Source: Candidatus Microgenomatus auricola (GTDB taxonomy: Bacteria; Patescibacteriota; Patescibacteriia; SBBC01). From it: a stretch of 57,777 nucleotides of DNA. This document shows, in pieces, positions 12,123 through 50,188 of the stretch. The first letter of the stretch is position 1, and the number at the start of each line of letters is the position of its first letter. Made by a program: the position numbers and the translations under genes. The stretch lies in contig SBBC01000033.1 in assembly GCA_005239865.1 (NCBI GenBank), forward strand, positions 1 to 57,777, written 5' to 3'. Under the pieces are notes generated by a model. That model did no database searches and was not told the origin of the DNA. It saw only the letters and a list, made by a program, of their open reading frames with translations.

Positions 12123-12965
12123 TCAAAATAGTTGACTGAAGCGACTTTGGTGTCCAGTTTTTACAGTCACATAGGCGTAGACCGAGGTTTGTCCGAGACG
12201 TTCAAGCCACCGAGCGAGGCGCCGCCACCCCAGACCGTTACCAGAGGCTACCGGACCAGCAATAATCTTGATAATGGTAAAACCCACCATTTCGAATTCT
12301 TTCAGCCACCGTCGTTGACTGAACGCCCAAAATTCTTGGATGTGATGCCGCGAGACACCATGCGGTGGTGGAAAGAGGTGACGGAGAAAAGGAATCCGCC
12401 GACGCCAAATCTTTTGGTTATTTTCGAAATACTGACCCTCCAATTCTGATTGATGATGTATTTCGCGGGATAGAATCTTTCGTGCCTGTTGCCCACTGAG
12501 CAGCTGCAAAGTAGTCAACAGCAGATTTGGATAGTAGGTTGTCATCCACGCTAGCTTCCAGAAAGTAGTTGGCATAATATGAACGGCAATGCCATCATCT
12601 TTAAGCACAGCGTGAACTCCGCGCAAGACCTTTTGCGGTCGCGACACATGCTCAAGCAAACTAGAAGAAAACACCAGATCGAACGACCGGGGTGGAAATT
12701 GACTATCTACCTCCTCCGCATCACAGACTTGGTAGCTAAGGTTCAACCCCGCCTCATTTTTTTGAACTAAGGGGCTATAATCAGTACTAATTAACTTTTT
12801 TGTCAACGGCGCTAATAATCTAGATTGGTAGCCGTCGCCAGCTCCAAGTTCCAAGGCTTTGGGGAAGGTCCCAGGGGGCACTCGAGCAAAAATTAGTTGG
12901 AACTCTCGATGCCTGTAATCATGTAGATATGTTGACCAGTCGGGCTTGAGGCGCATGAGCAACAT
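12123..12965 (-). CDS. Class I SAM-dependent methyltransferase
   Basis: ALELGAGDG, FDLVFSSSLLEHV, VLKDDG. Confidence 0.85.
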   Translation of the reverse strand: MLLMRLKPDWSTYLHDYRHREFQLIFARVPPGTFPKALELGAGDGYQSRLLAPLTKKLISTDYSPLVQKNEAGLNLSYQVCDAEEVDSQFPPRSFDLVFSSSLLEHVSRPQKVLRGVHAVLKDDGIAVHIMPTTFWKLAWMTTYYPNLLLTTLQLLSGQQARKILSREIHHQSELEGQYFENNQKIWRRRIPFLRHLFPPPHGVSRHHIQEFWAFSQRRWLKEFEMVGFTIIKIIAGPVASGNGLGWRRLARWLERLGQTSVYAYVTVKTGHQSRFSQLF

Positions 12966-13046
12966 TGAGTGCTAGTAACGGTAACCACTTGTTTATATCA
13001 CGTTTTTTTGTTATCATCAAGCTTCGAATCTTTATCGCACCCAGTC

Positions 13047-14258
13047 ATGCGCATTGTCTATCTGTTAGGAATGTTCGAGTTCTTTGGCGGTCAGGAACTC
13101 TACTTGGCCCGTCAACAAGCCAGACAGGGGCATCAAGTTGCCGTCGTTACTTCCAACACACCCTACCTATTTCCCAATATCGTTGAGCGGTATCGTTTGG
13201 AGGGGTTCCCAGAGCAAATGGCAAGCCACCGGCCAGGCAAGTTTGATTTCGAAGGCCTGCGGATCATCCGGCTCCCCACACTTTTTCACTACCAGGACTT
13301 CGTCGTGGTGCGAGGAGTGAAGAATATCTTGGAAGAACTGCGTCCAGATGTTGTGTTTGGGCATGAACCGCGTACCATTGCCCCCATCCTCGGTGCTCGC
13401 TATAAGCGGCGATTAGGCTATCTTTACTATCTAGACAGTCACGATTTTTTCCATACCGTTCAGAATCATCGCTGGTGGCAACGGTGGCTGCGTTACGCCG
13501 AGTATTTCTGGTGGCGAAGGTGGTTCGTTGACTACGCCCTGCGCCGTGCCGACCGCATTATTGCCGTAGCCGAAGAGTGTCGGAGGTTCCTGGTTGAGCG
13601 ACATGGCATTCCAAATTATCGTATTGAATCCCTGCCGCTCGGCGTGGAAACTGATTTCTTCCAGTACGACGAAACCGCAAGACGTGAAATTCGACAAAAA
13701 CTCAATTGTGGTTCACGAGATGTTATTCTACTCTTTGCTGGCTATATGTTTCGTCGTAAGGCCTTAGAGAGTTTAATCGATCTAATCGCGCAGGTGCGCG
13801 ACTTTCCCTTACGCTTGGTTTATGCTGGCGAGGGACCACCTGACTATTTAAACGAATTGAAACATCACGCCCTCATGAAAAACGTCGCTGACCGCGTGCA
13901 CTTTACCGGTTTTCTTTCCCGAAAAGAGATCGCTCGGTACTATGCTGGGGCTGACATTGGTGTTTGGCCAGGAAACAACTCTTTGGCTATCCTCGAAGCC
14001 ATGGCTTGTCGCCTACCAATCATTATGGCTGATATGCAGCTCGCCCACCTTGTTTCGCATGGAAACGGTTTTGCTGTACCATATGCCGACGTCGGGGCGT
14101 TAGAGCAACGGATTCGAGAATTGGCAGTTAACCGAACTCTGCGCCATGAGATGGGCCAGATGAGTCAAGCGGCGGCCTTAGAGCAATATAGTTACGCCAG
14201 TCTAGCACGGCAGGTATCAGGCTGGATGGAAGCGGACCTGGCCAAGATGAAGCGTTAA
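13047..14258 (+). CDS. GT4 glycosyltransferase
   Basis: MRIVYL start, FAGYMFRRK, ILEAMACRLP. Confidence 0.85.
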   Translation: MRIVYLLGMFEFFGGQELYLARQQARQGHQVAVVTSNTPYLFPNIVERYRLEGFPEQMASHRPGKFDFEGLRIIRLPTLFHYQDFVVVRGVKNILEELRPDVVFGHEPRTIAPILGARYKRRLGYLYYLDSHDFFHTVQNHRWWQRWLRYAEYFWWRRWFVDYALRRADRIIAVAEECRRFLVERHGIPNYRIESLPLGVETDFFQYDETARREIRQKLNCGSRDVILLFAGYMFRRKALESLIDLIAQVRDFPLRLVYAGEGPPDYLNELKHHALMKNVADRVHFTGFLSRKEIARYYAGADIGVWPGNNSLAILEAMACRLPIIMADMQLAHLVSHGNGFAVPYADVGALEQRIRELAVNRTLRHEMGQMSQAAALEQYSYASLARQVSGWMEADLAKMKR

Positions 14259-16358: not shown

Positions 16359-17490
16359 TGTCTAGCTGAAACACAGTTCAGGGTAGCAAGTCCAATCTGT
16401 CCTCTACCGTACGTTGTGTAAAATCCTCTAATCCAACCCTCGGTTTGACCGAACATGTTGTACCACATCTGGTAAGTCGTACCGACCTTCATGACAAACG
16501 GGCCATAAATGAGGAAGTCGATGGCCTGCTCTTGTGACGAACCACGTAAAACAGGTTGACGCTTCCAGAACGTCCATTTTTTGGATTCTTCATTTCAGCA
16601 TAGAAAACATCTTTTGATTCTGGTAAGGTGTTTGGAGAAAACCACATGCGGTACACCGCCCCTTCACGAAGAACTGTTGTGGTATATATATCAGATTTTG
16701 AATCTCTGTTGGTATCGACGAAAAATGCCGGGGAATAAAAAACGGTCCAATCGTAACCATTTGATGATTCCGCGTATTTGATCAGTCTCCCACGGTCTTC
16801 GTCGAGTACATTGAACCACATTTGGTAAAATCCTGAGAATTGTTGGATGATGGTGGGGTCGATATGGTGAAGCTCATAGGAATTCAGATCAAAAACAGGT
16901 CCGAATTTGGCCCAGTGAAGTCCATCCGGGGATGAGGCGTAACCAATTCGGTACCTTCCTCCGACAGCTTCTGCTTCTCCAGTCAGGCCGCGACCGCTGT
17001 ACCACATCTTATATCGCTCACTTTCTGGAGCATTTTCGTCTTTCAGCACGAACGGATAGGCAACGCTTTTGCTGTCCCACGACCCGTTTTCTCCTACGTC
17101 GATGACCGTTCCGAGTTTGGTCCAGTGAACACCGTCCAAGCTTTCGGCGTAATTGATTTTCCATGCAACGACTTCGTCGCTTGAGTACCACATTTTGTAC
17201 ACGCCGTCGGAGTAAAGAACCGAAGGACATTCAACCTCAAGAACCGCACCCCAACTTTCCTCTCTAGTGATAGTCCGTGTGTCATCACTTTCTAACACCG
17301 AGTTTTCGGCAGAGGGAATCCACTCGTTTCGCTTGTGGCAATTCGAAGCGAAAAAACTATCTGTTCCAGTCGACGACTGGAAGATAGACACAGGGAATTG
17401 CAAGAAGAGGAGAAGGGTCCCAAAAGTTTTTACGATTGAGCGGGAACGTCGATCAGGTTGTTGCTGCATTGTCACAAGAGAGCTACCCAT
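16355..17490 (-). pseudogene. Five-bladed beta-propeller glycosidase-like protein (GH32/43/130-like), frameshifted near the 3' end
   Basis: Repeated blades (PSV..GVYKMWYS..INYAESLDGVHWTK). A fifth blade (YGPFVMKVGTTYQMWY..QIGLAT) lies in another frame after the T6 run at 16577-16582 and ends in a TGA overlapping the wecB ATG (ATGA). Confidence 0.75.
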
Positions 17491-26295: not shown

Positions 26296-26491
26296 GTTTG
26301 CGAACAGGCAAGACGATAGAGGCAACATTTTTCGGGATTACTCCAGATTGAGTGGATAGTAGCCCTAGGGGAGATTTAGTAATTGGTCTCTGTGTAAGCA
26401 TACTGATCGGAAAGATGGAAAGCACTGCGCCTGTTTCCCTTCGGCAATTGATGGAGATATCGAAAATCATTTTTTGTATCTTTCTTTGTGA

Positions 26492-27601
26492 TTAAGATGT
26501 CTGCGAAAAAAATTGGAGAATGCTATTTACCGACCTTCTGATTTCGGTATTTGGTAATTCGGGATAGATAGGAAGCGAGAGTACTTCCGCGGCTGCCCGC
26601 TCCGCAAGCGGAAGGCTTCCACGCCGGTACCCCAGATGACGTAGAGCGGGTTGAAGATGGAGAGGTAACGGATAGTAGATGGCTGTGGGAATTCCTTTCC
26701 TTTGCAGGTAGTTGGCGAGTTGATCCCGGCGCTCTTTCACGCGAATAGTATATTGGTTATAGACGTGGGTTAATCCGGGTACTGATGACGGTGTAACGAC
26801 CGATCGGCAGCTTCTGAGTAAAGAGGTATATAACAGGGCTTTCTTTGCACGGGTAGCATTCCAGGAGGTAAGATGCGGCAGCTTGACATTAAGAATGGCC
26901 GCCTGCAATGCATCTAGTCGCGAACATACCCCGACAAAGTCATGGATGTATTTCACCACAGAACCATGGACCCGCCATTTTCTAACGAAGGCAGCGAGCT
27001 TAGGATTGTTTGTCAATACTACCCCACCATCGCCGTAGGCGCCGAGGTTTTTTGAGGGGAAAAAAGATACACACCCAATGTCGCCGAGCGAACATACTCT
27101 TTTCCCTTGATATGTTGACCCGAGCGCCTGCGCGGCATCCTCAATTACTGCCAGTCGGTATCCCCGTGCAATTTGAAGAATCTCGTGCATCTGGGCGGGG
27201 AGCCCGAAGAGGTGGACCGGAATCAGGACGCGCGTCCGTTTTGTGATCCGTTGCTCGATGGAACCTGGGTCGATATTGAACGTAGTAGGATCTATGTCAA
27301 CGAAGACCGGTTTCGCACCAGCTAGGAGAATCACTTCGGCGGTAGCAAAAAAAGAGAAAGGCGTGGTGATTACTTCGTCGCCTTTCCCAATCCCAAGGGC
27401 AAGGAGCGAAGCAAGGAGGGCGTCGGTTCCGGAATTCACGCCGATCGCATAACGAACACCACAGAATTGAGCCATTGCTACTTCAAATTTCTCAACCGTT
27501 GGCCCGAGGATGAATTCACTTCGTTCGAGGGTCTGGCGGATTGCTTTCTCCATTTCCGGCTTTAACGCAATAAATTGTTTTTGAAGATCGAGAAATTTCA
27601 T
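26492..27601 (-). CDS. wbpE: DegT/DnrJ/EryC1/StrS aminotransferase (WbpE-like)
   Basis: NSGTDAL, IEDAAQA, SFFPSKNLGAYGDGG; adjacent to wbpD- and wbpB-like genes. Confidence 0.85.
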   Translation of the reverse strand: MKFLDLQKQFIALKPEMEKAIRQTLERSEFILGPTVEKFEVAMAQFCGVRYAIGVNSGTDALLASLLALGIGKGDEVITTPFSFFATAEVILLAGAKPVFVDIDPTTFNIDPGSIEQRITKRTRVLIPVHLFGLPAQMHEILQIARGYRLAVIEDAAQALGSTYQGKRVCSLGDIGCVSFFPSKNLGAYGDGGVVLTNNPKLAAFVRKWRVHGSVVKYIHDFVGVCSRLDALQAAILNVKLPHLTSWNATRAKKALLYTSLLRSCRSVVTPSSVPGLTHVYNQYTIRVKERRDQLANYLQRKGIPTAIYYPLPLHLQPALRHLGYRRGSLPLAERAAAEVLSLPIYPELPNTEIRRSVNSILQFFSQTS

Positions 27602-28188
27602 TGATTGACTCTCTTTACTATCATATCGTTCTTCACATACTCTCGTTTGCATCGATTGCACCGGCTAGAGTCCTTGTCGGCGAAGTCGAGTTTTGTCCCG
27701 CACTCACAGATCCAGCCTTTTAATTCGGCGGGAACACCATAAACGAGTGCATAGTCAGGGACGTCTTTAGTCACGACCGATCCCGAACCAATAAAAGCGT
27801 GCCGACCAATTGTAATGCCGCAGATAATTGTTGCATTTGCACCAATCGAAGTACCTTCTTTAACGAGCGTCGGTTTGTACTTTCCATACTTCGGGTATTT
27901 TGCTCGCGGGTTGATATCGTTGATGAACACCATTGAAGGTCCGCAGAAAACGTAGTTTTCAAGAGCGACGCCGTCGTAGACTGATACGTTATTCTGGATC
28001 TTGACGTGATGACCTATGACCGCTCGTCCCCCGACGAAAACGTTCTGACCTAAAACACAATTCCGGCCGATGGTGGCACCGCGGCTGATATGACAGAAAT
28101 GCCAGACCTTTGTTCCAGTGCCGATTGAGGCACCTTCATCAACGACGCTCGAGGGGTGAATAAAGGCTGTTGTCTGATCGCTCGGCAT
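27598..28188 (-). CDS. wbpD: Hexapeptide-repeat N-acetyltransferase (WbpD/WlbB-like)
   Basis: KVWHFCHI, KIQNNVSVY, GPSMVF, GANATI, C-terminal CECG...CxxC. Confidence 0.88.
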   Translation of the reverse strand: MPSDQTTAFIHPSSVVDEGASIGTGTKVWHFCHISRGATIGRNCVLGQNVFVGGRAVIGHHVKIQNNVSVYDGVALENYVFCGPSMVFINDINPRAKYPKYGKYKPTLVKEGTSIGANATIICGITIGRHAFIGSGSVVTKDVPDYALVYGVPAELKGWICECGTKLDFADKDSSRCNRCKREYVKNDMIVKRVNQ

Positions 28189-28192
28189 ATCT

Positions 28193-32612: not shown

Positions 32613-34259
32613 ATGACACAGCTCAAGATTTGGCGTAACGAACTCCTGGTAATCGGTGGGCTTGCCACTTTGATACTTATATCTAGTTCCTTGTTATGGT
32701 ACTCATTTCCAGGAAAATTCGATTCGCCAGATGAAAACGCGAATTTTTTTCTTACGCAGCGTTTCGCTCAAGGGTTGTCGTTGAGCATCAAAGAACCACT
32801 GACCGAAATTGCAGACATCGTCGCGCCACGAAGTTTGGTCGTCAGCCAAGGAGCAATTCTACCCGGCAGCTTCTTGGGTCTGATTCTTCTATATGGATTT
32901 TTCGGAAAGATTTTTGGACTTTCGATTCTTGGCTTTTTAACGCCTCTTTTTTCAGCCATTGGCGTTGTTGCCTTCTATGTTTTGGTTAAAAAGTTTTTCC
33001 AACCATCGACTGCCATCCTATCCGCCCTACTCCTCGCCGTCCATCCGGCGTTCTTGTACTGGTCGGCCCGAAGTTTTTTTCATAATGCCCTCTTTTTCGA
33101 TCTTTTCGTTATCGGACTTTCCCTGCTATCTGTGGTGTTGATGAAATCACCATTCGAAGCGATGAGCGAAAGGAAGCGAAAAGCGATATTGTTTGGTTCG
33201 GGTCTGTCGATCGGGGCTGCCGTGGCTGTGAGAACATCCGAGGTAATCTGGATTGCATTGGTATTGGTTTTTTTTATCGTATATTTCCGGACTACCTTTC
33301 TACGCAGCGGCGGTTGGTGGGTATTCCCGTTAGGAATCGCGATTCCACTGATCCCAATTGTTGTTTTAAACGGTCAGCTATATGGCAACCCGTTGTCGTT
33401 CGGTTATAGCATCGGTCTAGACGATGAGACAACAACTCAGGTTGCATCCCCGGCCAGCTCGTTTTTCAGGGCGGTTGAGCTGATTTTTCCGTTCGGTATT
33501 CAATTTGAAACCGCAGCCGTGAATTTTTGGAATTACGGCCTCAAGCTACTATGGTTCCCCTCCCTTCTCACTCTACTCGGCATCTTTATGACTTGGCGGT
33601 CGTCATCAGCACAACAAATGGGTAAGCTCTGGGCGACGACGCTAGGATTCATCTCATTGTGGCTTGTTGTTTATTATGGCTCCTGGGAGTTTCATGACAA
33701 CCCCGACCCAACGAAAATAACGCTCGGCACTTCCTATACCCGTTATTGGCTCCCGCTGTATGCATTTGGCATTCCATACGCAGCGATAGCACTCCGTCGA
33801 CTTCTCACGCTGTCGGTGTTACCATTTTCCATTTGGCACCGGGTTCGACCAGTGATTGTAGTTGTCACCGTGCTCATTGTTGTTCAATTCTCGTCATCCC
33901 TCGTCATTACCGACGATGAGGAAGGACTTGTCGCTGTTCGGACACATACCATAGAATATAGAAACATGGCGGCCCGTGTCGTCCGCGAGACACCGGAGAA
34001 CGCCGTGATCATAGCGGGAAGGGCTGATAAAGTGTTGTTTCCTGAGCGTAAAGTGATATATCGCGTTGACCGCCCGGAGGAATTTGCTGGCGTCCGAAAC
34101 TTGCTTGAAACGGTGCCGGTATTCATCTATGTACCTCCAACCGAAGCGCTTCGTACGGTGAGACGGTTTTGGGAGGAACGAGGATTTCGAATCGAAACCG
34201 AGACTTCGTTGTCGGAGAATGAGTTGTTGCTACGATTATCGTCGGCGAGACGGGGTTAA
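32613..34259 (+). CDS. GT-C (ArnT/PMT-like) membrane glycosyltransferase
   Basis: SPDE motif in the first loop, many TM segments, YGNPLSFGY, RYWLP. Confidence 0.75.
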   Translation: MTQLKIWRNELLVIGGLATLILISSSLLWYSFPGKFDSPDENANFFLTQRFAQGLSLSIKEPLTEIADIVAPRSLVVSQGAILPGSFLGLILLYGFFGKIFGLSILGFLTPLFSAIGVVAFYVLVKKFFQPSTAILSALLLAVHPAFLYWSARSFFHNALFFDLFVIGLSLLSVVLMKSPFEAMSERKRKAILFGSGLSIGAAVAVRTSEVIWIALVLVFFIVYFRTTFLRSGGWWVFPLGIAIPLIPIVVLNGQLYGNPLSFGYSIGLDDETTTQVASPASSFFRAVELIFPFGIQFETAAVNFWNYGLKLLWFPSLLTLLGIFMTWRSSSAQQMGKLWATTLGFISLWLVVYYGSWEFHDNPDPTKITLGTSYTRYWLPLYAFGIPYAAIALRRLLTLSVLPFSIWHRVRPVIVVVTVLIVVQFSSSLVITDDEEGLVAVRTHTIEYRNMAARVVRETPENAVIIAGRADKVLFPERKVIYRVDRPEEFAGVRNLLETVPVFIYVPPTEALRTVRRFWEERGFRIETETSLSENELLLRLSSARRG

Positions 34260-45688: not shown

Positions 45689-46963
45689 GTGTCACCCACA
45701 AATTTTTTCCAGAACGTTATGCATGAGCTTCGTCAGGCCGCCGAGATCGGTCATCTGCCGCAGCACGCACTCGAGATCCTGAAACAGCCGCAACGGATTT
45801 TCCAGGTGGCCATTCCGGTTCGGATGGATAAAGGGACGACAAAAATCTTCACCGGTTTTCGCGTCCAGCACAACGACGCTCGCGGTCCCTTCAAGGGCGG
45901 GATTCGTTTTCATCCGCGGACTGATTTGAGCGAAGTCAAAGCGTTAGCCCTCCTGATGTCAATGAAGTGCGCGGCCGTCAATATCCCTTTTGGCGGGGCC
46001 AAGGGCGGGGTGGCGGTTGATCCGAAATCCCTTTCAGCGCGCGAACTCGAGGACTTGTCTCGGGGCTGGGTGCGGGCGATGTACAAGTACTTGGGTCCGG
46101 AAGTGGATATCCCGGCGCCGGATGTCTATACGACGCCGAAGATCATGGCTTGGATGGTTGACGAGTACAGCCGGTTGACCGGCAAGTGGCAGCCCGGCGC
46201 GTTCACTGGCAAACCTCGGGAAATTGGGGGATCAGTCGGACGCGAATCCGCCACTGGCCTCGGAGGAGCAATCATGTTGAAGGCGCTCTTGCAGAAACTT
46301 CGGCGGTCGCCGAGACAGACGACGGTCGCGGTTCAGGGGTTCGGAAACGTCGGCTACCACCTGGCCGAAGAACTCCATCGGACCGGCTACAAAGTCATTG
46401 CGATTTCCGATTCGCGAGGTGGGATCGCTGACCTCCGTCGCCAGGGGATGGATCCGGCGCACGTGCTGGCCACGAAACAGAAGCGGGGAATGATCGCTGG
46501 CGTGTACTGCGTCGGGACAGTTTGCGATTTCAAGAACTACAAAGCCATCTCAAACGAGGACGTGCTGACGATGAAGGTTGACGTGCTCGTTCCGGCGGCT
46601 CTCGAGAACGCGATCACGAAGGACAACGCCGGTCGCGTCCAAGCCAAGATTATCTTGGAGATGGCGAATGGCGCGATTACTTCGGAAGCCAACGCCAAGC
46701 TCCAGCGGAAGAATACGGTCATCGTGCCGGACATCATCGCCAACGCCGGCGGCGTTGTTGGCTCGTACTTCGAGTGGGTCCAGAACTTGACGAACAGCTA
46801 CTGGCCGGAGGAGAAATTCGAACAACGCTTGAGGTCGGTCATGGAAAAAGCCTTCACCAGCGTGTGGTCGATGGGGACGGAGCTAAAAACGAATCTTCGG
46901 GTGGCTGCCTGGATTATTGCGACGCGAAGAATTGCGCAAGCGATTGAGGCACGGGGATGGTGA
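45689..46963 (+). CDS. gdhA: Glu/Leu/Phe/Val dehydrogenase (glutamate dehydrogenase)
   Basis: GPFKGGIRFHP, GGAKGG, DIPAPD, QGFGNVG, NAGGV..SYFEWVQN. Confidence 0.92.
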   Translation: MSPTNFFQNVMHELRQAAEIGHLPQHALEILKQPQRIFQVAIPVRMDKGTTKIFTGFRVQHNDARGPFKGGIRFHPRTDLSEVKALALLMSMKCAAVNIPFGGAKGGVAVDPKSLSARELEDLSRGWVRAMYKYLGPEVDIPAPDVYTTPKIMAWMVDEYSRLTGKWQPGAFTGKPREIGGSVGRESATGLGGAIMLKALLQKLRRSPRQTTVAVQGFGNVGYHLAEELHRTGYKVIAISDSRGGIADLRRQGMDPAHVLATKQKRGMIAGVYCVGTVCDFKNYKAISNEDVLTMKVDVLVPAALENAITKDNAGRVQAKIILEMANGAITSEANAKLQRKNTVIVPDIIANAGGVVGSYFEWVQNLTNSYWPEEKFEQRLRSVMEKAFTSVWSMGTELKTNLRVAAWIIATRRIAQAIEARGW

Positions 46964-46966
46964 TGC

Positions 46967-47091
46967 TCGGGTGGGAAACCTACGGTTTCCCCCTCCGATG
47001 CTCCGCTTTTCCCTGTACGGTGTCGCGCTGCCTCGCTCGTCTAGGGTCCCGTCCTTCGGACACCCTGATCCTCGCTCCGGCGGACGCGACA
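46967..47091. repeat. REP-like compound hairpin element
   Basis: GGGAAACC-TAC-GGTTTCCC; long nested stem TGTCGCG/CGCGACA, CTGCC/GGCGG, TAGGGT/ACCCTG, GTCC-TTC-GGAC, with CTCGCTC on both strands of an internal loop. Confidence 0.6.
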
Positions 47092-47111
47092 ATTGTCTTT
47101 GAAGTAAATCC

Positions 47112-47537
47112 ATGATGCAGAAACTTCATCACTGGCCACTCAAAGCTGTCCACCCGTGGGTGTCGAAGCACTATCACTACGCCGTGGTTGGCGCTTCGGC
47201 CAATCCGGAAAAGTTCGGGAATATTATTTTTTTCGATCTCAAGAACGCCGGCTTTATGGTGACGCCGGTGAATCCCCGCCTACGCGAACTCGGTGGCGTC
47301 AAGGCCGTATCTCGTCTTCAAGATATGATGCCGAAACCAGAGGTGGCAATTGTCGTCGTTCCGCCTGACGTGGGCATGAAAGTGATTGATGATGCGGTTG
47401 AGGCGGGAGTCAAGAAACTGTGGTTCCAGCCGGGGGCCGAGTCGCCGGAACTCCAAAAGAAAACCGCTGACGCCGGCCTGGACGCGATCACCGACGGCTC
47501 GTGCATCATGGTTGTCCGTCGGCAAATCGAACGGTAG
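47112..47537 (+). CDS. CoA-binding protein (YccU family)
   Basis: AVVGAS.NP.KFG, PVNP, WFQPGAES, CIMV. Confidence 0.9.
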   Translation: MMQKLHHWPLKAVHPWVSKHYHYAVVGASANPEKFGNIIFFDLKNAGFMVTPVNPRLRELGGVKAVSRLQDMMPKPEVAIVVVPPDVGMKVIDDAVEAGVKKLWFQPGAESPELQKKTADAGLDAITDGSCIMVVRRQIER

Positions 47538-47584
47538 TCAATCGCGGATCAGTTCCTAACCTTAGCCAAAAAACAAACCCCGGA

Positions 47585-47613
47585 TTGACCAAATTAATAA
47601 AAAGGGATATAGT
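47585..47613 (+). promoter_or_regulatory. Sigma70 promoter pointing into the non-coding region
   Basis: TTGACC-N17 (A-rich)-TATAGT, with an A-rich UP-like sequence upstream. Confidence 0.75.
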
Positions 47614-47619
47614 CCTAGA

Positions 47620-48947
47620 TTGTAGTTTTGTTTTTCCACAACCGCAGGACTACATGAGGGATTTTCCCTCTTGAGATCTTTGATAGCGCGAGACAAGCGA
47701 GAAAGCGGTTTTTCCCCCATCCTTCAAGGACGGATGGTCGAAAGGAGCAGAGTACATGACGTGCTCGCTGAAGTTTCCTTCATGAGGATGTTGCCTGAGA
47801 AACCCCGCCATGGAATTCTCGAGTTCCATCCGCAATGACCGGGATACGGTCGCGAGTCCCTTTTGGGCACGGGGAATATCGAGCGTTCGCATGAACAGGT
47901 TTTTTGGGCGATCACTCCACAGCGCATGGAGCAGGCACAGCTGTCCAGGTGCTAGCGGCCCTCCCTCCAACCTGTGAGCCGCGGCGACGTTTCAAAACGC
48001 CGCCGCCGAACTTTCCGTAGCAACAGTTCAAGGAAAGGAACTGATGCATGAACACGGAAAGGGCGCCCCCCAGCTAGGGCGGGCAGTACGTTCCGACAGC
48101 CGTGGGTTCAGTTGGTTTGTTGGTGGCGCAAAGGCCTGACCGTTGTGAACCGACGGTTGTCGCGGTTGACCCAAGGCCAGCGGTGTCGCTGGAAGTCAAA
48201 TGGACTTGGGAAGAACTTACGGAGTTCCGGCACACCGCGGCCTTGGAAGGTTTCACCCAAGCGAGCTTGGTGTCAGGTTGTTTCCTGAAGACCGTGGACG
48301 CTCCACACCATGCACTCTCGGACCGAGAAACGGTCGTTCATAAAAAGCATGTGGTCGCTGGAGGATACGTCAAGCGGTTCTTCGGGACGTTCCCCCGCGA
48401 ACGGCTGACCAGAGTCCGTGAACTTTGGACAACCGTTCGCTCGACGGACCAGCGCAATCCAAGGAGGAGGATTGCAAGCCATGTGTATTCGTGGTCCGTA
48501 AGAAGTTTGGACTGGGAGCCAGGTGCGCCGGGCGAAACCAAGTCCCGGAAGTTCCCGGCGCACCACTCCCGGCACTTCCGCACACCTTGTGCACGTACGC
48601 GGCGGCATGGCGTTCCAATGCCTGGTCAACAAACCCGGAGTCCACGTAGGACACCATGTCGCCGTCTTTTTCACCAGGAAAGGTGAACTGCCACATGCCG
48701 ATGCCGAAGCATCTCTTTCGGACGTACCGGTTCATCCAGAGGCAGAGTGGGTACAAGATCTCCAAGCGCAGTCAGCGCCGCGGCTGGCACCGGGCCAGGG
48801 ATTGCCCGTAAATCGCTTTCAATGCTTGAGAGGCGAGCGTCACCAACACGGTGAAGTGCCCTTTCGCCAAGGTCAGGGCATCAAGATCCGGGGCGCTCGC
48901 CCCGCTGTTCTCCTGAAGGGTTTCCGATTTTCGGCCCCTTCTTTTTT
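47620..48947 (+). ncRNA. Candidate ~1.3 kb highly structured non-coding RNA of unknown family
   Basis: Bounded by a promoter and an intrinsic terminator; near-continuous helices with G-U pairs on the + strand; no ORF with recognisable protein features. Confidence 0.65.
48915..48947 (+). terminator. Intrinsic terminator
   Basis: GAAGGG..CCGA-TTT-TCGG.CCCTTC followed by T6. Confidence 0.7.
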
Positions 48948-48948
48948 A

Positions 48949-48977
48949 TTGCCTCTGGATAGTTCACGGCGTACAAT
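48949..48977 (+). promoter_or_regulatory. Sigma70 promoter for the rnhB operon
   Basis: TTGCCT-N17-TACAAT. Confidence 0.6.
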
Positions 48978-48989
48978 AGAGGTGATTGT

Positions 48990-49628
48990 ATGGTTGTGCC
49001 TCACACGAAAGAAGAGCAGGCCCTGCGTCAGGCCGGTCACCGACACGTCGCCGGAGCGGACGAAGTGGGCAAAGGCGCATGGGCCGGCCCGCTCGTGGCC
49101 GCGGCAGTCATCCTACCGACCGAGTTCGCGGTCGCCGGCGTGCGCGATTCAAAGCAGTTGAGCCCGCGTCAACGTCAAGCGCTGTTCGTGCGGATTACCA
49201 AGCGCGCAGTCAGTTGGGCGGTCCACGTCGTACCGAATTCCGTCATCGATCGCCGTGGCATCAAGCACGCCAACGTTCAAGCGTTGCAGCAAGCCCTGCG
49301 AAAATTGCACATCCAGCCCGACGCCGCGTTGGTTGACGCGATCCGCGTGAAGCACGGGAAGAAACCGGTCAAGGCGATCATCAAGGGCGACGAAAAGGTT
49401 TTGAGCATTGCGGCCGCATCGATTGTTGCGAAGGTCGTCCGCGATACACTGATGTCCGGTTTCGAACGTCAGTATCCCGGCTACGGCTTTGCGCGACACA
49501 AGGGGTATGGGACGGCAGAGCATGAACTACGTTTGAAAGATCTCGGCCCATCCGACATTCACCGGAAAAGCTTTGCGCCGGTCAAGAGGGTCGGGAAGAA
49601 ACAGACCTCACGGAAAGTAAAACCATGA
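48990..49628 (+). CDS. rnhB: Ribonuclease HII
   Basis: GADEVGKGAWAGP, RDSK.L, IIKGD, SIAAASIVAKV.RD, HKGYGT, HRKSF. Confidence 0.95.
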   Translation: MVVPHTKEEQALRQAGHRHVAGADEVGKGAWAGPLVAAAVILPTEFAVAGVRDSKQLSPRQRQALFVRITKRAVSWAVHVVPNSVIDRRGIKHANVQALQQALRKLHIQPDAALVDAIRVKHGKKPVKAIIKGDEKVLSIAAASIVAKVVRDTLMSGFERQYPGYGFARHKGYGTAEHELRLKDLGPSDIHRKSFAPVKRVGKKQTSRKVKP

Positions 49629-50188
49629 CCGAACTCGTCGCCACCGGTCGAACATTTCTTGATCCGGCAAAACTCCTGGAACGCGCCGGGATTGCGCCGG
49701 GCATGCGAGTCGGCGACTTTGGGGTCGGCGGGGCGGCGTACTTCGCCGTGCAGGCGGGAAAGATGATCGGCGAACACGGCCTCGTGTACGGGATCGATGT
49801 GTTCAAGCCGGCCCTGTCGGGAGCGATGAGCAAAGCGAAGCTCGCCGGTTGCAGGAACTTCAGGCCGGTTTGGTCGAACCTTGAAATGTTCGGCGCCGCC
49901 CGCTCGGTTCCGAACGACTCGGTTGATCTTGGCATTCTTGTCAACGTGCTCCATCAGTCAAAAAAGCAAAAGGACGTTTTGAAAGAGTGTGCTCGGATGC
50001 TCAAACCCGGCAGTCGCCTACTGATCGTCGACTGGATGAAGGGCGGCGAGCGCTTCGGGCCAAAACGCGAACAAATCGTGCCGGCTAATCGGGTGGTCGA
50101 CCTGTGTACCCAGGCAGGACTGGCCTTGTTCGACCAGTTCGAGGCCGGTCCGTATCACTACGGGATCGTGGTGGTCAAGGCGGGGTAG
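49625..50188 (+). CDS. Class I SAM methyltransferase-like protein
   Basis: GMRVGDFGVG, NVLHQ, LKPG.RLLIVDW, HYG. Confidence 0.8.
   Translation: MTELVATGRTFLDPAKLLERAGIAPGMRVGDFGVGGAAYFAVQAGKMIGEHGLVYGIDVFKPALSGAMSKAKLAGCRNFRPVWSNLEMFGAARSVPNDSVDLGILVNVLHQSKKQKDVLKECARMLKPGSRLLIVDWMKGGERFGPKREQIVPANRVVDLCTQAGLALFDQFEAGPYHYGIVVVKAG

What the first reader, a model, noticed from the sequence alone, without database searches (positions are those of the whole stretch)
47585..48947. Candidate giant (~1.3 kb) structured non-coding RNA with its own promoter and terminator
This is the only long gap in an otherwise gene-dense window. It is framed by TTGACC-N17-TATAGT and a hairpin plus T6, and the downstream rnhB has a separate promoter. 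Helices follow one another almost without gaps: 47810-17/47822-29, 47981-92/47995-48006, 48011-18/48054-61, 48094-103/48153-62, 48171-86/48232-46 (closing a multiloop), 48397-404/48433-40, 48444-51/48492-99, 48522-32/48554-64 (11 bp perfect), 48599-610/48654-65 and 48670-75/48682-87, among others. Mismatches are mostly G-U on the + strand, as expected for RNA-level selection. The overlapping ORFs look like noise. I see no hallmark of RNase P, tmRNA, rRNA or group I/II introns, and it is longer than OLE, ROOL or GOLLD RNAs.
Basis: partly seen in the sequence, partly recalled or inferred. Interest (0 to 1): 0.88.

Follow-up and report, generated by a model that had tools for sequence, protein, structure and literature searches.

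The report
Structured 1.3-kb RNA carrying tiny genes
A 1.3-kb stretch with no ordinary gene in a tiny groundwater bacterium folds as tightly as known structural RNAs, yet the only parts shared with related bacteria are three very short protein-coding frames, so it looks like a new structured RNA that is partly translated rather than a purely non-coding giant RNA.

Summary
Window 47538-48989 is the only stretch of 1 kb or more in the window without an ORF that fills it. All ten listed helices are there. The whole RNA folds at z = -8.5 against dinucleotide shuffles, while coding flanks score about -1.5 to +2. Each third is as structured as this genome's own tmRNA and RNase P RNA. The promoter and the hairpin-T6 terminator are present, and two relatives have a promoter-like site at the equivalent 5' end. 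Nothing in Rfam or Pfam matches, and no protein homologue was found.

The label "non-coding" holds only in part. Units of about 0.8-1.7 kb sit upstream of rnhB in four other species of the same candidate-phyla-radiation family. They are weakly homologous to this one. The three blocks shared with this unit each hold a tiny frame led by a Shine-Dalgarno site:
- a 9-codon frame at 47756-47785;
- a 9-codon frame ending E-R-A-P-P-x-stop at 48048-48077 (RAPP is a known ribosome-arrest motif);
- a 36-codon arginine-rich frame at 48701-48811.

Differences between genera in these frames are largely synonymous. About 88% of the RNA is structured and diverges fast. With only two sequences, covariation is not significant.

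Best reading: a lineage-specific, partly translated structured RNA. No expression data exist.

The parts
47585..47613 (+). Sigma-70-type promoter-like site: TTGACC, 17 nt, TATAGT. The predicted start is near 47620.
   Evidence: 10 of 12 positions. A promoter-like site lies at the equivalent 5' end of the unit in G005, and one near the contig start in G006.
47620..47947 (+). 5' third of the predicted RNA. It includes the 5' hairpin 47621-47631 / 47644-47654.
   Evidence: MFE fold. The segment 47620-48062 folds at z = -3.8.
47740..47747 (+). Shine-Dalgarno GAAAGGAG of mini-ORF 1.
   Evidence: Sequence. The same motif stands 8-11 nt before the ATG in G006 and G002.
47756..47785 (+). Mini-ORF 1: 9 codons plus stop (MTCSLKFPS).
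   Evidence: G006 and G002 have MSWSFKIGT and MSWSFKLGT at the collinear place, with the same length. G006 and G002 differ by 3 synonymous changes and one I/L change. The degenerate pattern hits only these units.
47791..47799 (+). TTGCCTGAG after the stop of mini-ORF 1. The core TGCCT is kept in all four units. In the consensus fold its CCT pairs with the AGG of the Shine-Dalgarno site.
47966..48111 (+). Conserved domain ('block B') closed by a long-range helix. It encloses mini-ORF 2.
   Evidence: 65% identity over 150 nt with G005, E = 3e-7. All 30 consensus pairs are kept in both sequences and 3 are compensatory, which is not significant. Model R1 finds only G000 and G005.
48030..48039 (+). 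Shine-Dalgarno AAGGAAAGGA of mini-ORF 2.
   Evidence: Sequence. G005 has AAGGAAGGA 7 nt before its ATG.
48048..48077 (+). Mini-ORF 2: 9 codons plus stop (MNTERAPPS). It carries the RAPP arrest motif.
   Evidence: G005 has MPHERAPPL. All four differences within the ERAPP codons are synonymous, and the stop falls at the same codon. The pattern hits only these 2 of the 21 genomes of the order, and the backwards control hits none.
48481..48501 (+). Third Shine-Dalgarno-led mini-ORF (MCIRGP, SD AAGGAGGAGG at 48461-48470). Seen only in this genome.
   Evidence: No counterpart among the SD-led frames listed for the relatives' units.
48063..48505 (+). Middle third, the most structured part.
   Evidence: z = -5.2 on + and -5.0 on -.
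48676..48686 (+). Shine-Dalgarno-like AGGAAAGGTGA of the 36-codon ORF. It lies partly inside the hairpin 48670-75 / 48682-87.
   Evidence: Sequence. Helix checked.
48701..48811 (+). Small ORF of 36 codons plus stop, arginine-rich, ending RRGWHRARDCP. An alternative start lies at 48695.
   Evidence: G004 has a 36-codon ORF at the same place before rnhB. 21 of 36 residues are identical, 8 of them through synonymous codons, and the stop is TAA against TGA. Two G004 alleles are 91% identical in the ORF against 86% overall.
48890..48903 (+). Hairpin GGGGCGCTCGCCCC. Its core GGGCGCTCGCCC is also present in G004.
48915..48947 (+). Terminator-like hairpin (GAAGGG...CCCTTC with an inner CCGA/TCGG stem) followed by T6.
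   Evidence: Sequence and MFE fold. Not listed by the scan. G005, G006, G002 and G004 end their units with a hairpin and a T run.
48949..48977 (+). rnhB promoter-like site, outside the unit.
   Evidence: TACAAT, or TACACT in G002, stands about 12-13 nt before the start ATG in G000, G002 and G004. An AGGTG lies between them in G000 and G004, not in G002.

Best explanation
The gap is one transcription unit on the + strand, from about 47620 to 48947. It makes a heavily folded RNA of about 1.33 kb that is specific to one family of candidate-phyla-radiation bacteria. The RNA is partly translated. It carries two 9-codon mini-ORFs and a 36-codon ORF for an arginine-rich peptide, each led by a Shine-Dalgarno site.

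Shown:
- the exceptional folding;
- the promoter and terminator signals;
- the syntenic, weakly homologous units in relatives;
- the substitution pattern in the three short frames, which indicates selection on the peptides.

Inferred:
- Ribosomes that load on the mini-ORFs melt the helices their start regions sit in. The mini-ORF ending ERAPP-x-stop stalls the ribosome at Pro-Pro, as RAPP arrest peptides do.
- Ribosome occupancy therefore remodels the fold. This sets the RNA's stability, the translation of the downstream 36-residue basic peptide, or both.
- That peptide, having an arginine-rich motif, may bind structured RNA, possibly its own transcript.
- The long structured spacers are under selection for being folded rather than for their sequence.
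For: Structure:
- z = -8.5 for the whole RNA.
- The three thirds score -3.8, -5.2 and -3.6. This genome's tmRNA scores -3.6 and its RNase P RNA -7.1. Six coding controls score -1.5 to +0.9.
- The units before rnhB in G005, G002 and G006 are also strongly folded. The + strand is more folded than the - strand in G005 and in most G002 windows.

Unit boundaries:
- Promoter, and hairpin plus T6.
- G005 has TTGACA-16-TATTGT just after its CoA-gene remnant and a terminator just before rnhB.
- G006 has TTGACA-16-TATGTT 173 nt before its mini-ORF 1, near the contig's start.

Homology:
- Collinear weak matches: G000 with G005, 150 nt at 65%, E = 3e-7; G000 with G006, 59 nt at 68%, E = 0.002; G000 with G004, 139 nt at 66%, E = 1.5e-10.

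Translation:
- Mini-ORF 1 is present in 3 of 7 family genomes, once each. It is absent from the 299 other genomes of a class sample of 301, with no control hits. In a scan of all species representatives, only the G006 and G002 contigs hit.
- Mini-ORF 2 is present in 2 of the 21 genomes of the order, with no control hits. All four differences in its five ERAPP codons are third-position and synonymous.
- In the 36-codon ORF, 21 of 36 residues are identical to G004, 8 of them through synonymous codons. Length, start (MPK) and stop position are the same.

Arrest motif:
- RAPP gives robust arrest that EF-P does not relieve, is avoided in proteomes and occurs near the C-terminus of small upstream ORFs (PMC12992588, abstract and sections 8 and 13).
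- The minimal RxPP motif is reported as sufficient for arrest (PMC10951233, Discussion passage).

Long ORFs are not genes:
- Coding scores are negative in most frames.
- There is no codon-position GC pattern.
- None of the 10 gap ORFs tested has a Pfam match.
- The 194-aa + ORF has no homologue, and neither does the 191-aa - frame.
Against: - There are no expression data of any kind.
- Only five species carry a unit, and no single block is shared by all. Mini-ORF 1 was not found in G005 or G004. Mini-ORF 2 is missing from G002, G006 and G004. The 36-codon ORF was not found in the three genomes of the other genus.
- Covariation is not significant. In block B 3 of 30 pairs are compensatory, and 72 of 500 shuffles reach this. 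The three-sequence consensus around mini-ORF 1 has an unfavourable covariation term.
- The RAPP codons also form one arm of a hairpin in both genomes. Some third-position changes could therefore be compensation at the RNA level rather than synonymous drift.
- Known RAPP arrest peptides are far longer and carry export signals. Five residues before the motif matter in them (PMC10951233, passages). Here only four residues precede RAPP.
- The helices are mostly Watson-Crick and the - strand also folds at z = -6.2. The strand is therefore inferred mainly from the signals and the ORFs.
- The mini-ORFs lie 600-900 nt from the 36-codon ORF, so a direct regulatory link is conjecture.
- The synonymous-change arguments were made after seeing the data.
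Confidence: 0.5

Rival explanations
1. It is a purely RNA-level giant ornate non-coding RNA. The RNA acts through its three-dimensional fold, and the short frames are incidental or untranslated.
For: Exceptional folding. Own promoter and terminator. No long coding frame. Some conservation extends beyond the short frames: block B spans 146 nt, and the G004 match runs 78 nt past the stop. A hairpin between the two G004 alleles changes on both sides.
Against: Differences in the three frames are mostly synonymous. Frame lengths and stop positions are kept, and each frame has a Shine-Dalgarno site at working distance. Most of the RNA cannot be aligned even within the family. As far as I recall, known ornate RNAs keep many invariant nucleotides. 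No Rfam family matches.
Confidence: 0.17
2. It is a giant cis-acting leader of the rnhB operon. Ribosome stalling on the mini-ORFs decides whether the hairpin-T6 terminator, 42 nt before rnhB, is read through.
For: The unit lies directly before rnhB, in the same direction, in all 5 genomes that have it. In G006 a small repeat lies between them. In two relatives of the same order that lack the unit, the CoA gene is followed by rnhB within 49-85 nt, so rnhB was probably co-transcribed with it before the unit arose. The scan found no separate rnhB promoter in G005 or G002.
Against: A -10-like TACAAT (TACACT in G002) stands before the start ATG in G000, G004 and G002, and G006 has its own promoter before rnhB. 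This points to an insulated rnhB. No mini-ORF lies near the terminator. The shared position may reflect common descent only.
Confidence: 0.12
3. It is decaying DNA without present function: a remnant of inserted or formerly coding sequence in which a few short frames survive by chance or recent descent.
For: Very fast divergence and a patchy, mosaic presence of every block. Weak coding-like patches (+ frame near 48160-48400). The other genus holds a 47-54-codon ORF that this genome lacks. The genome has many other stretches of low coding score.
Against: Neutral DNA should not fold at z = -8.5. Other ORF-poor stretches of this genome are mostly far less folded. A gap of 0.8-1.7 kb is kept in 1-Mb genomes of three genera, with promoter and terminator in place. 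Substitutions in the short frames are biased to synonymous sites.
Confidence: 0.13
4. It is a DNA-level element, in which hairpins or cruciforms act in replication, recombination or as a mobile-element remnant, rather than an RNA.
For: Both strands fold well (z = -8.5 and -6.2). G-U pairs are rarer than in shuffles, 34-35 against about 50.
Against: No repeat families and no terminal repeats. Single copy in the genome. No match in phages or plasmids. No GC-skew turn. In G005, and mostly in G002, the + strand folds clearly better. This genome's RNase P RNA also folds well on its antisense strand, at -5.7.
Confidence: 0.05

Closest known systems
RAPP/RGPP ribosome-arrest peptides encoded by upstream ORFs (ApdA, ApdP, CruR and the Streptomyces examples). 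Sources: PMC10951233 (abstract and passages); PMC12992588 (abstract, sections 8 and 13).
   Same: Arg-Ala-Pro-Pro lies one residue from the stop of a small frame led by a Shine-Dalgarno site and embedded in mRNA structure. The motif is conserved between two genera while the neighbouring residues change.
   Different: Only 9 codons, with four residues before the motif. The known ones have tens to hundreds of residues with signal or membrane segments. No regulated gene follows within a few tens of bases. Arrest was not tested.
Large ornate bacterial RNAs OLE, ROOL and GOLLD (PMC12286853, search listing and start of abstract only; sizes and conservation recalled).
   Same: Size class, dense helices, a discrete unit, no long ORF.
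   Different: No match to their Rfam models. Longer than them. Known in five species of one family only. Conservation is confined to three blocks that each hold a tiny ORF. The RNA is probably translated.
Dual-function bacterial RNAs that are both structured regulators and mRNAs for small peptides, such as RNAIII, SgrS and SR1 (recalled, no call).
   Same: A structured RNA with its own promoter and terminator that also encodes a short peptide.
   Different: Two to three times longer. Several frames rather than one. No target or base-pairing function is known.
Short leader peptides of attenuators and drug-sensing leaders, such as the 8-19-codon leaders before cat, erm and cmlA (recalled, no call).
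   Same: Frames of about 9 codons with a strong Shine-Dalgarno site, placed inside helices that translation would melt.
   Different: In those systems the regulated gene starts a few bases after the leader hairpin. Here the next conserved frame is hundreds of bases away.
Arginine-rich-motif RNA-binding peptides, such as the N proteins of lambdoid phages (recalled, no call).
   Same: A short, very basic peptide (8 Arg, 3 Lys and 2 His in 36 residues) with a conserved Arg-rich C-terminal stretch that includes a Trp, encoded next to many RNA hairpins.
   Different: No sequence relationship was tested or claimed. Binding is pure inference.

Membership tests
Any Rfam 15 family (including OLE, ROOL, GOLLD, group I/II introns, RNase P, tmRNA, rRNA) | Match to the family covariance model at its gathering score | tested here: not met
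   One search found only 4 tRNAs in the window. One search found three matches in the gap at E 0.22-5.1, all far below gathering score. This genome's tmRNA and RNase P RNA lie on other contigs.
Large ornate non-coding RNA (as a kind) | Structure supported by covariation across many homologues | tested here: inconclusive
   Only two sequences can be aligned for block B. 30 of 30 pairs are kept and 3 are compensatory, but 72 of 500 shuffles do as well. The block A consensus is weak.
Large ornate non-coding RNA (as a kind) | No conserved translated frame | tested here: not met
   Three short frames are conserved, with differences that are largely synonymous.
RAPP-type arrest-peptide upstream ORF | R-A-P-P (or R-G-P-P) close to the C-terminus of a small ORF | tested here: met
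   MNTERAPPS in G000 and MPHERAPPL in G005.
RAPP-type arrest-peptide upstream ORF | An N-terminal export or membrane signal and a nascent chain long enough to fill the exit tunnel | tested here: not met
   The frame has 9 codons, with four residues before the motif.
RAPP-type arrest-peptide upstream ORF | A regulated gene immediately downstream, whose ribosome-binding site is freed by the stalled ribosome | tested here: inconclusive
   The next conserved frame starts 624 nt downstream. Local helices would be opened by a stalled ribosome, but no target is evident.
RAPP-type arrest-peptide upstream ORF | Translation arrest shown by toeprint or reporter | not testable with these tools
   Needs a bench assay.
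Ordinary protein-coding gene or recent pseudogene filling the gap | A long frame with codon bias or homologues | tested here: not met
   Reading stop codons through opens no convincing frame.
Independent transcription unit | A promoter at the 5' end and an intrinsic terminator at the 3' end | tested here: inconclusive
   The promoter-like site matches 10 of 12 positions. The terminator was seen by eye and in the MFE fold but not by the scan. The arrangement is repeated in G005. These are consensus matches, not mapped ends.
Repeat, mobile or phage-derived element | Several copies, terminal repeats, or similarity to phage or plasmid records | tested here: not met

The most novel reading that the evidence does not exclude
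This is the founding member of a new class of giant (0.8-1.7 kb) structured RNAs in candidate-phyla-radiation bacteria. Such RNAs have ultra-short, ribosome-arresting mini-ORFs built into their fold. A 9-codon RAPP frame, the shortest RAPP arrest unit I know of, would act as a translation sensor that switches the architecture of a large RNA. The 36-residue arginine-rich peptide encoded on the same RNA would bind it to form an RNA-peptide particle.
Probability: 0.2. Interest if true: 0.85.

Novelty: new variant of a known kind. Interest (0 to 1): 0.62.

Why it matters
Candidate-phyla-radiation bacteria have genomes of about 1 Mb with little spare DNA. A unit of about 0.8-1.7 kb kept in three genera is therefore probably doing something, yet it would be annotated as nothing or as a spurious hypothetical protein.

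If the reading is right, three things follow. The RAPP arrest motif can work, or at least is selected, in a 9-codon frame, which would shift the known lower size limit of such sensors. It would add a case in which a very large RNA fold and tiny translated frames are combined. And it shows that 'giant non-coding RNA' candidates found by gap-and-hairpin criteria need a check for micro-ORFs before they are called non-coding.

If the reading is wrong, the region remains one of the most strongly folded unannotated stretches of this genome and a good target for metatranscriptomics.

Tried and rejected
- Known RNA families: Rfam on the window, on the gap at E up to 10, on three relatives' loci and on 20 other ORF-poor loci of the genome. 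Only tRNAs were found.
- Long ORFs as genes. Ten stop-to-stop frames have no Pfam match. The 194-aa + ORF has no homologue among the word-sharing candidates. The 191-aa - frame, read with table 4 across one TGA, has 0 hits in 1.84 billion representatives. The 345-codon - frame under table 4 looks like noise. Reading stops through opens nothing convincing.
- Direct DNA homology. Standard BLAST found nothing in 40 relatives, in the 7 family genomes, in the genome itself, or in phages and plasmids. First-pass blastn, nhmmer and tblastx against relatives' gaps also found nothing. Homology appeared only with +1/-1 scoring.
- Global MAFFT alignments of whole units are unreliable.
- The metagenome scan with RnhB gave 2 distant loci of no use.
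- Sequencing runs: no RNA holder is listed. The two DNA holders are the probable source sample. Laying contigs showed a 10.7-kb contig across 47061-50000 with no differences and no variants in the gap. It comes from the same sample, so it is not independent.
- The covariance model of block B found no further member in 21 genomes.
- The 54-codon ORF of the other genus has no counterpart in this genome and no homologue.
- The 36-codon ORF has no Pfam match, no usable Atlas hit and no homologue when searched as the 51-codon form.
- RAPP depletion in a crude proteome of this genome: 2 observed against 6.7 expected. This is too few to weigh.
- An 11-nt perfect pairing between 48734-44 and 48950-60 is within chance by my estimate of about 0.25 expected.
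- Literature: 'Patescibacteria + noncoding RNA + structured' gave 1 irrelevant paper. 'large noncoding RNA / GOLLD / ROOL / Candidate Phyla Radiation' gave none on this group. 'Kerfeldbacteria + intergenic' gave 0. Supplements were not opened.
Full report
WHERE AND WHAT. The window is contig C50 of a 1.0-Mb assembly in 58 contigs, 99% complete. A relative's record title reads Candidatus Kerfeldbacteria, so this is a candidate-phyla-radiation bacterium. The DNA occurs in groundwater metagenome runs. The finding lies between a CoA-binding-domain gene (47112-47537) and rnhB (48990-49628), both on the + strand.

THE OBSERVATION. The gap 47538-48989 is real. In a crude codon-usage map of the window it is the only stretch of 1 kb or more without an ORF that fills it. 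The other low-score stretches of that length each hold an ORF of 282-553 aa. The promoter-like TTGACC-17-TATAGT at 47585-47613 matches 10 of 12 positions. The hairpin 48915-48941 followed by T6 at 48942-48947 is in the sequence and in the MFE fold, although the terminator scan did not list it.

The fold is far beyond chance.
- The + strand of 47620-48947 has an MFE of -587.3 kcal/mol, against -500.6 +/- 10.2 in 40 dinucleotide shuffles (z = -8.5).
- Eight of nine 300-nt windows across the gap score -2.0 to -4.7, and the last scores -1.5. Seventeen flanking windows score -3.0 to +1.9.
- For calibration, the three thirds of the gap score -3.8, -5.2 and -3.6. The same method gives -3.6 for this genome's tmRNA, -7.1 for its RNase P RNA, and -1.5 to +0.9 for six coding segments.
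- An independent assembler's contig from the same sample spans 47061-50000 without a difference.

Two details of the observation fail. The - strand also folds at z = -6.2. G-U pairs are equally frequent in the two MFE folds, 34 and 35, and rarer than in shuffles, about 50. The claimed G-U asymmetry is therefore not there.

NOT A KNOWN RNA, NOT AN ORDINARY GENE.
- Rfam gives nothing.
- The gap has no codon-position GC pattern: 0.56/0.58/0.54, against about 0.6/0.4/0.7 in neighbouring genes.
- Six-frame codon-usage scores are negative almost everywhere. One weak + patch of 0.19 bits per codon lies near 48160-48400, against 0.25-0.5 in real genes.
- Ten stop-to-stop frames have no Pfam match.
- The two most protein-like long frames have no homologue.
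- The gap holds no repeat families, is single-copy in the genome, and has no match in phages or plasmids.

RELATIVES. In two genomes of the same order, G012 and G013, the CoA gene is followed by rnhB within 85 and 49 nt. A third, G007, has 542 nt between them. In the window's own family, G005 has about 1.56 kb between a truncated CoA gene and rnhB. G002 has at least 1.7 kb and G006 at least 1.2 kb of ORF-poor sequence before rnhB. G004 has about 0.78 kb.

These stretches fold as unusually as ours. In G005 the rnhB strand is clearly the better one, about -4.5 against -2.1 over seven windows, and this is mostly so in G002 as well. G005 has TTGACA-16-TATTGT just after its CoA remnant and a terminator before rnhB. 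G006 has TTGACA-16-TATGTT near the start of its contig, 173 nt before its mini-ORF 1. The three genomes of that genus share a terminator hairpin, and G004 has its own terminator.

Standard BLAST, nhmmer and tblastx saw no similarity. With +1/-1 scoring, collinear weak homology appears:
- G000 with G005: 150 nt at 65%, E = 3e-7.
- G000 with G006: 59 nt at 68%, E = 0.002.
- G006 with G002: 268 nt at 64%, E = 1e-17 (all).
- G000 with G004: 139 nt at 66%, E = 1.5e-10.

The units are therefore homologous but have diverged almost beyond recognition.

WHAT IS CONSERVED. Each block that our unit shares with another genus holds a tiny frame led by a Shine-Dalgarno site.

(1) 47756-47785 encodes MTCSLKFPS behind GAAAGGAG. 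G006 and G002 have MSWSFKIGT and MSWSFKLGT, with the same length. Those two differ from each other by three synonymous changes and one Ile/Leu change. A motif with the core TGCCT follows the stop in all four units. A degenerate pattern for this frame hits once each in 3 of 7 family genomes. It hits nothing else in a 301-genome class sample, and backwards controls hit nothing. With its flanks, the pattern hits only the G006 and G002 contigs in the scan of all species representatives.

(2) 48048-48077 encodes MNTERAPPS behind AAGGAAAGGA. G005 has MPHERAPPL. Within the five ERAPP codons all four differences are third-position and synonymous, and the stop is at the same codon, TAG against TGA. The pattern hits only these 2 of 21 order genomes, and controls hit none.

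This frame sits in a 146-nt domain, 47966-48111. All 30 of its consensus pairs hold in both genomes, and three pairs changed on both sides. With two sequences that is not significant, since 72 of 500 shuffles reach it. A covariance model of the domain finds no third member in 21 genomes.

(3) 48701-48811 encodes a 36-residue arginine-rich peptide ending RRGWHRARDCP. G004 has a 36-codon frame at the same place. 21 of 36 residues are identical, 8 of them through different codons, and the stop is TAA against TGA. The two G004 alleles are 91% identical inside the frame against 86% over the whole unit.

A further mini-ORF (48481-48501) with a strong Shine-Dalgarno site is seen in this genome only. 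The other genus carries a 47-54-codon frame at the position equivalent to our 36-codon one. Between G005 and G002, 22 of 53 residues are identical, 12 of them through synonymous codons. It has no detectable counterpart here. Whether the two frames are related is open.

READING. Together the three frames cover 171 of about 1330 nt. The rest is folded, fast-evolving and without coding signal. RAPP is a documented arrest motif. It gives robust arrest that EF-P does not relieve, is avoided in proteomes, and sits near the C-terminus of small upstream ORFs before genes of many functions (PMC12992588, abstract and sections 8 and 13). A minimal RxPP is reported to be sufficient, while the residues just before it modulate arrest (PMC10951233, passages of the Results and Discussion).

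I therefore read the locus as one + strand transcription unit for a large structured RNA that is partly translated. I infer that ribosomes on the mini-ORFs open the helices in which the start regions lie. Examples are the AGG of the first Shine-Dalgarno site pairing with the conserved CCT after the stop, and the body of mini-ORF 2 forming the 3' arm of helix 48011-18 / 48054-61. I also infer that a ribosome arrested at Pro-Pro holds the fold open. What this controls is not shown. It could be the RNA's stability, translation of the basic 36-residue peptide, or, less likely, read-through into rnhB.

The read-through idea is weakened by a conserved -10-like TACAAT directly before the start codon of rnhB in G000 and G004, TACACT in G002, and by a separate promoter in G006. 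An arginine-rich peptide encoded amid hairpins suggests RNA binding, but this is conjecture.

LIMITS.
- There are no expression data.
- Only five species carry a unit, and the conservation is a mosaic.
- Covariation is not significant.
- The substitution arguments were made after seeing the data.
- The RAPP codons also take part in a hairpin in both genomes, so compensation at the RNA level could mimic synonymous drift.
- Known RAPP peptides are much longer.
- The strand rests on the signals, the frames and the relatives' asymmetry, because our own unit folds well on both strands.

VERDICT. Its interpretation is half right: this is a giant structured RNA, but not a purely non-coding one, and not demonstrably of the OLE, ROOL or GOLLD kind. 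I found no description of it in the searches made. I rate it a new variant of known kinds: structured RNAs that carry leader or arrest mini-ORFs and small peptides. It is of moderate to high interest, pending expression data.

Noticed in passing
window 46955-47090 (+); also G000 C4:60255-60397 (+), C11:874-740 (-), C57:115668-115568 (-); L034:1214-1349; L032:10116-10052: A repeat of about 135 nt, present in four copies in this genome (72-74% identical) and in two relatives. It folds into a hairpin plus a long stem-loop. 15 of 37 consensus pairs show changes on both sides. It has no Rfam match. It is probably an undescribed small structured RNA or leader motif. Assembly graphs break at it.
   Followed up: partly
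G000 C57:114750-116400 (locus L076): A second stretch of about 1.5 kb with strongly negative folding z (-3 to -6 per 300 nt). It holds a copy of the small repeat and overlaps a plausible 165-aa ORF. It has no sequence similarity to the finding.
   Followed up: partly
L032:5698-5862 (-), L033 (unit positions 1318-1482), L034:898-1041: A 47-54-codon ORF ending W-x-G-R-x-x-P-G-stop is conserved in the rnhB-upstream units of the other genus. It has many synonymous differences and no homologue in the protein collection.
   Followed up: partly
L096 (G004:C65) and L005 (G004:C38): Two contigs of one assembly carry the same locus at 86% identity. These are either two strains in the bin or a duplication. 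Between them a hairpin after the small ORF changes on both sides (CTCGCC/GGCGAG to CTAGCC/GGCTAG).
   Followed up: no
L032:7000-7239 (G005): The CoA-binding gene is cut down to a 79-codon remnant in G005, next to the unit's promoter.
   Followed up: no
L093: The record title of this contig names a gammaproteobacterium. Its length (15,481 nt) and the position of the match equal those of G006 contig C12, a same-family relative of the window's candidate-phyla-radiation genome. The label is probably wrong.
   Followed up: no
window 12450-14254, 16362-17482, 26338-28192, 32623-33893: Long ORFs of 282-553 aa with near-zero codon-usage scores relative to the rest of the genome. They may be recently acquired or atypical genes.
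   Followed up: no
G000 C9:9102-10553; C44:1829-5077: Other ORF-poor stretches with moderately negative folding z (means about -3.1 on the - strand and -2.3). Rfam finds nothing there.
   Followed up: no
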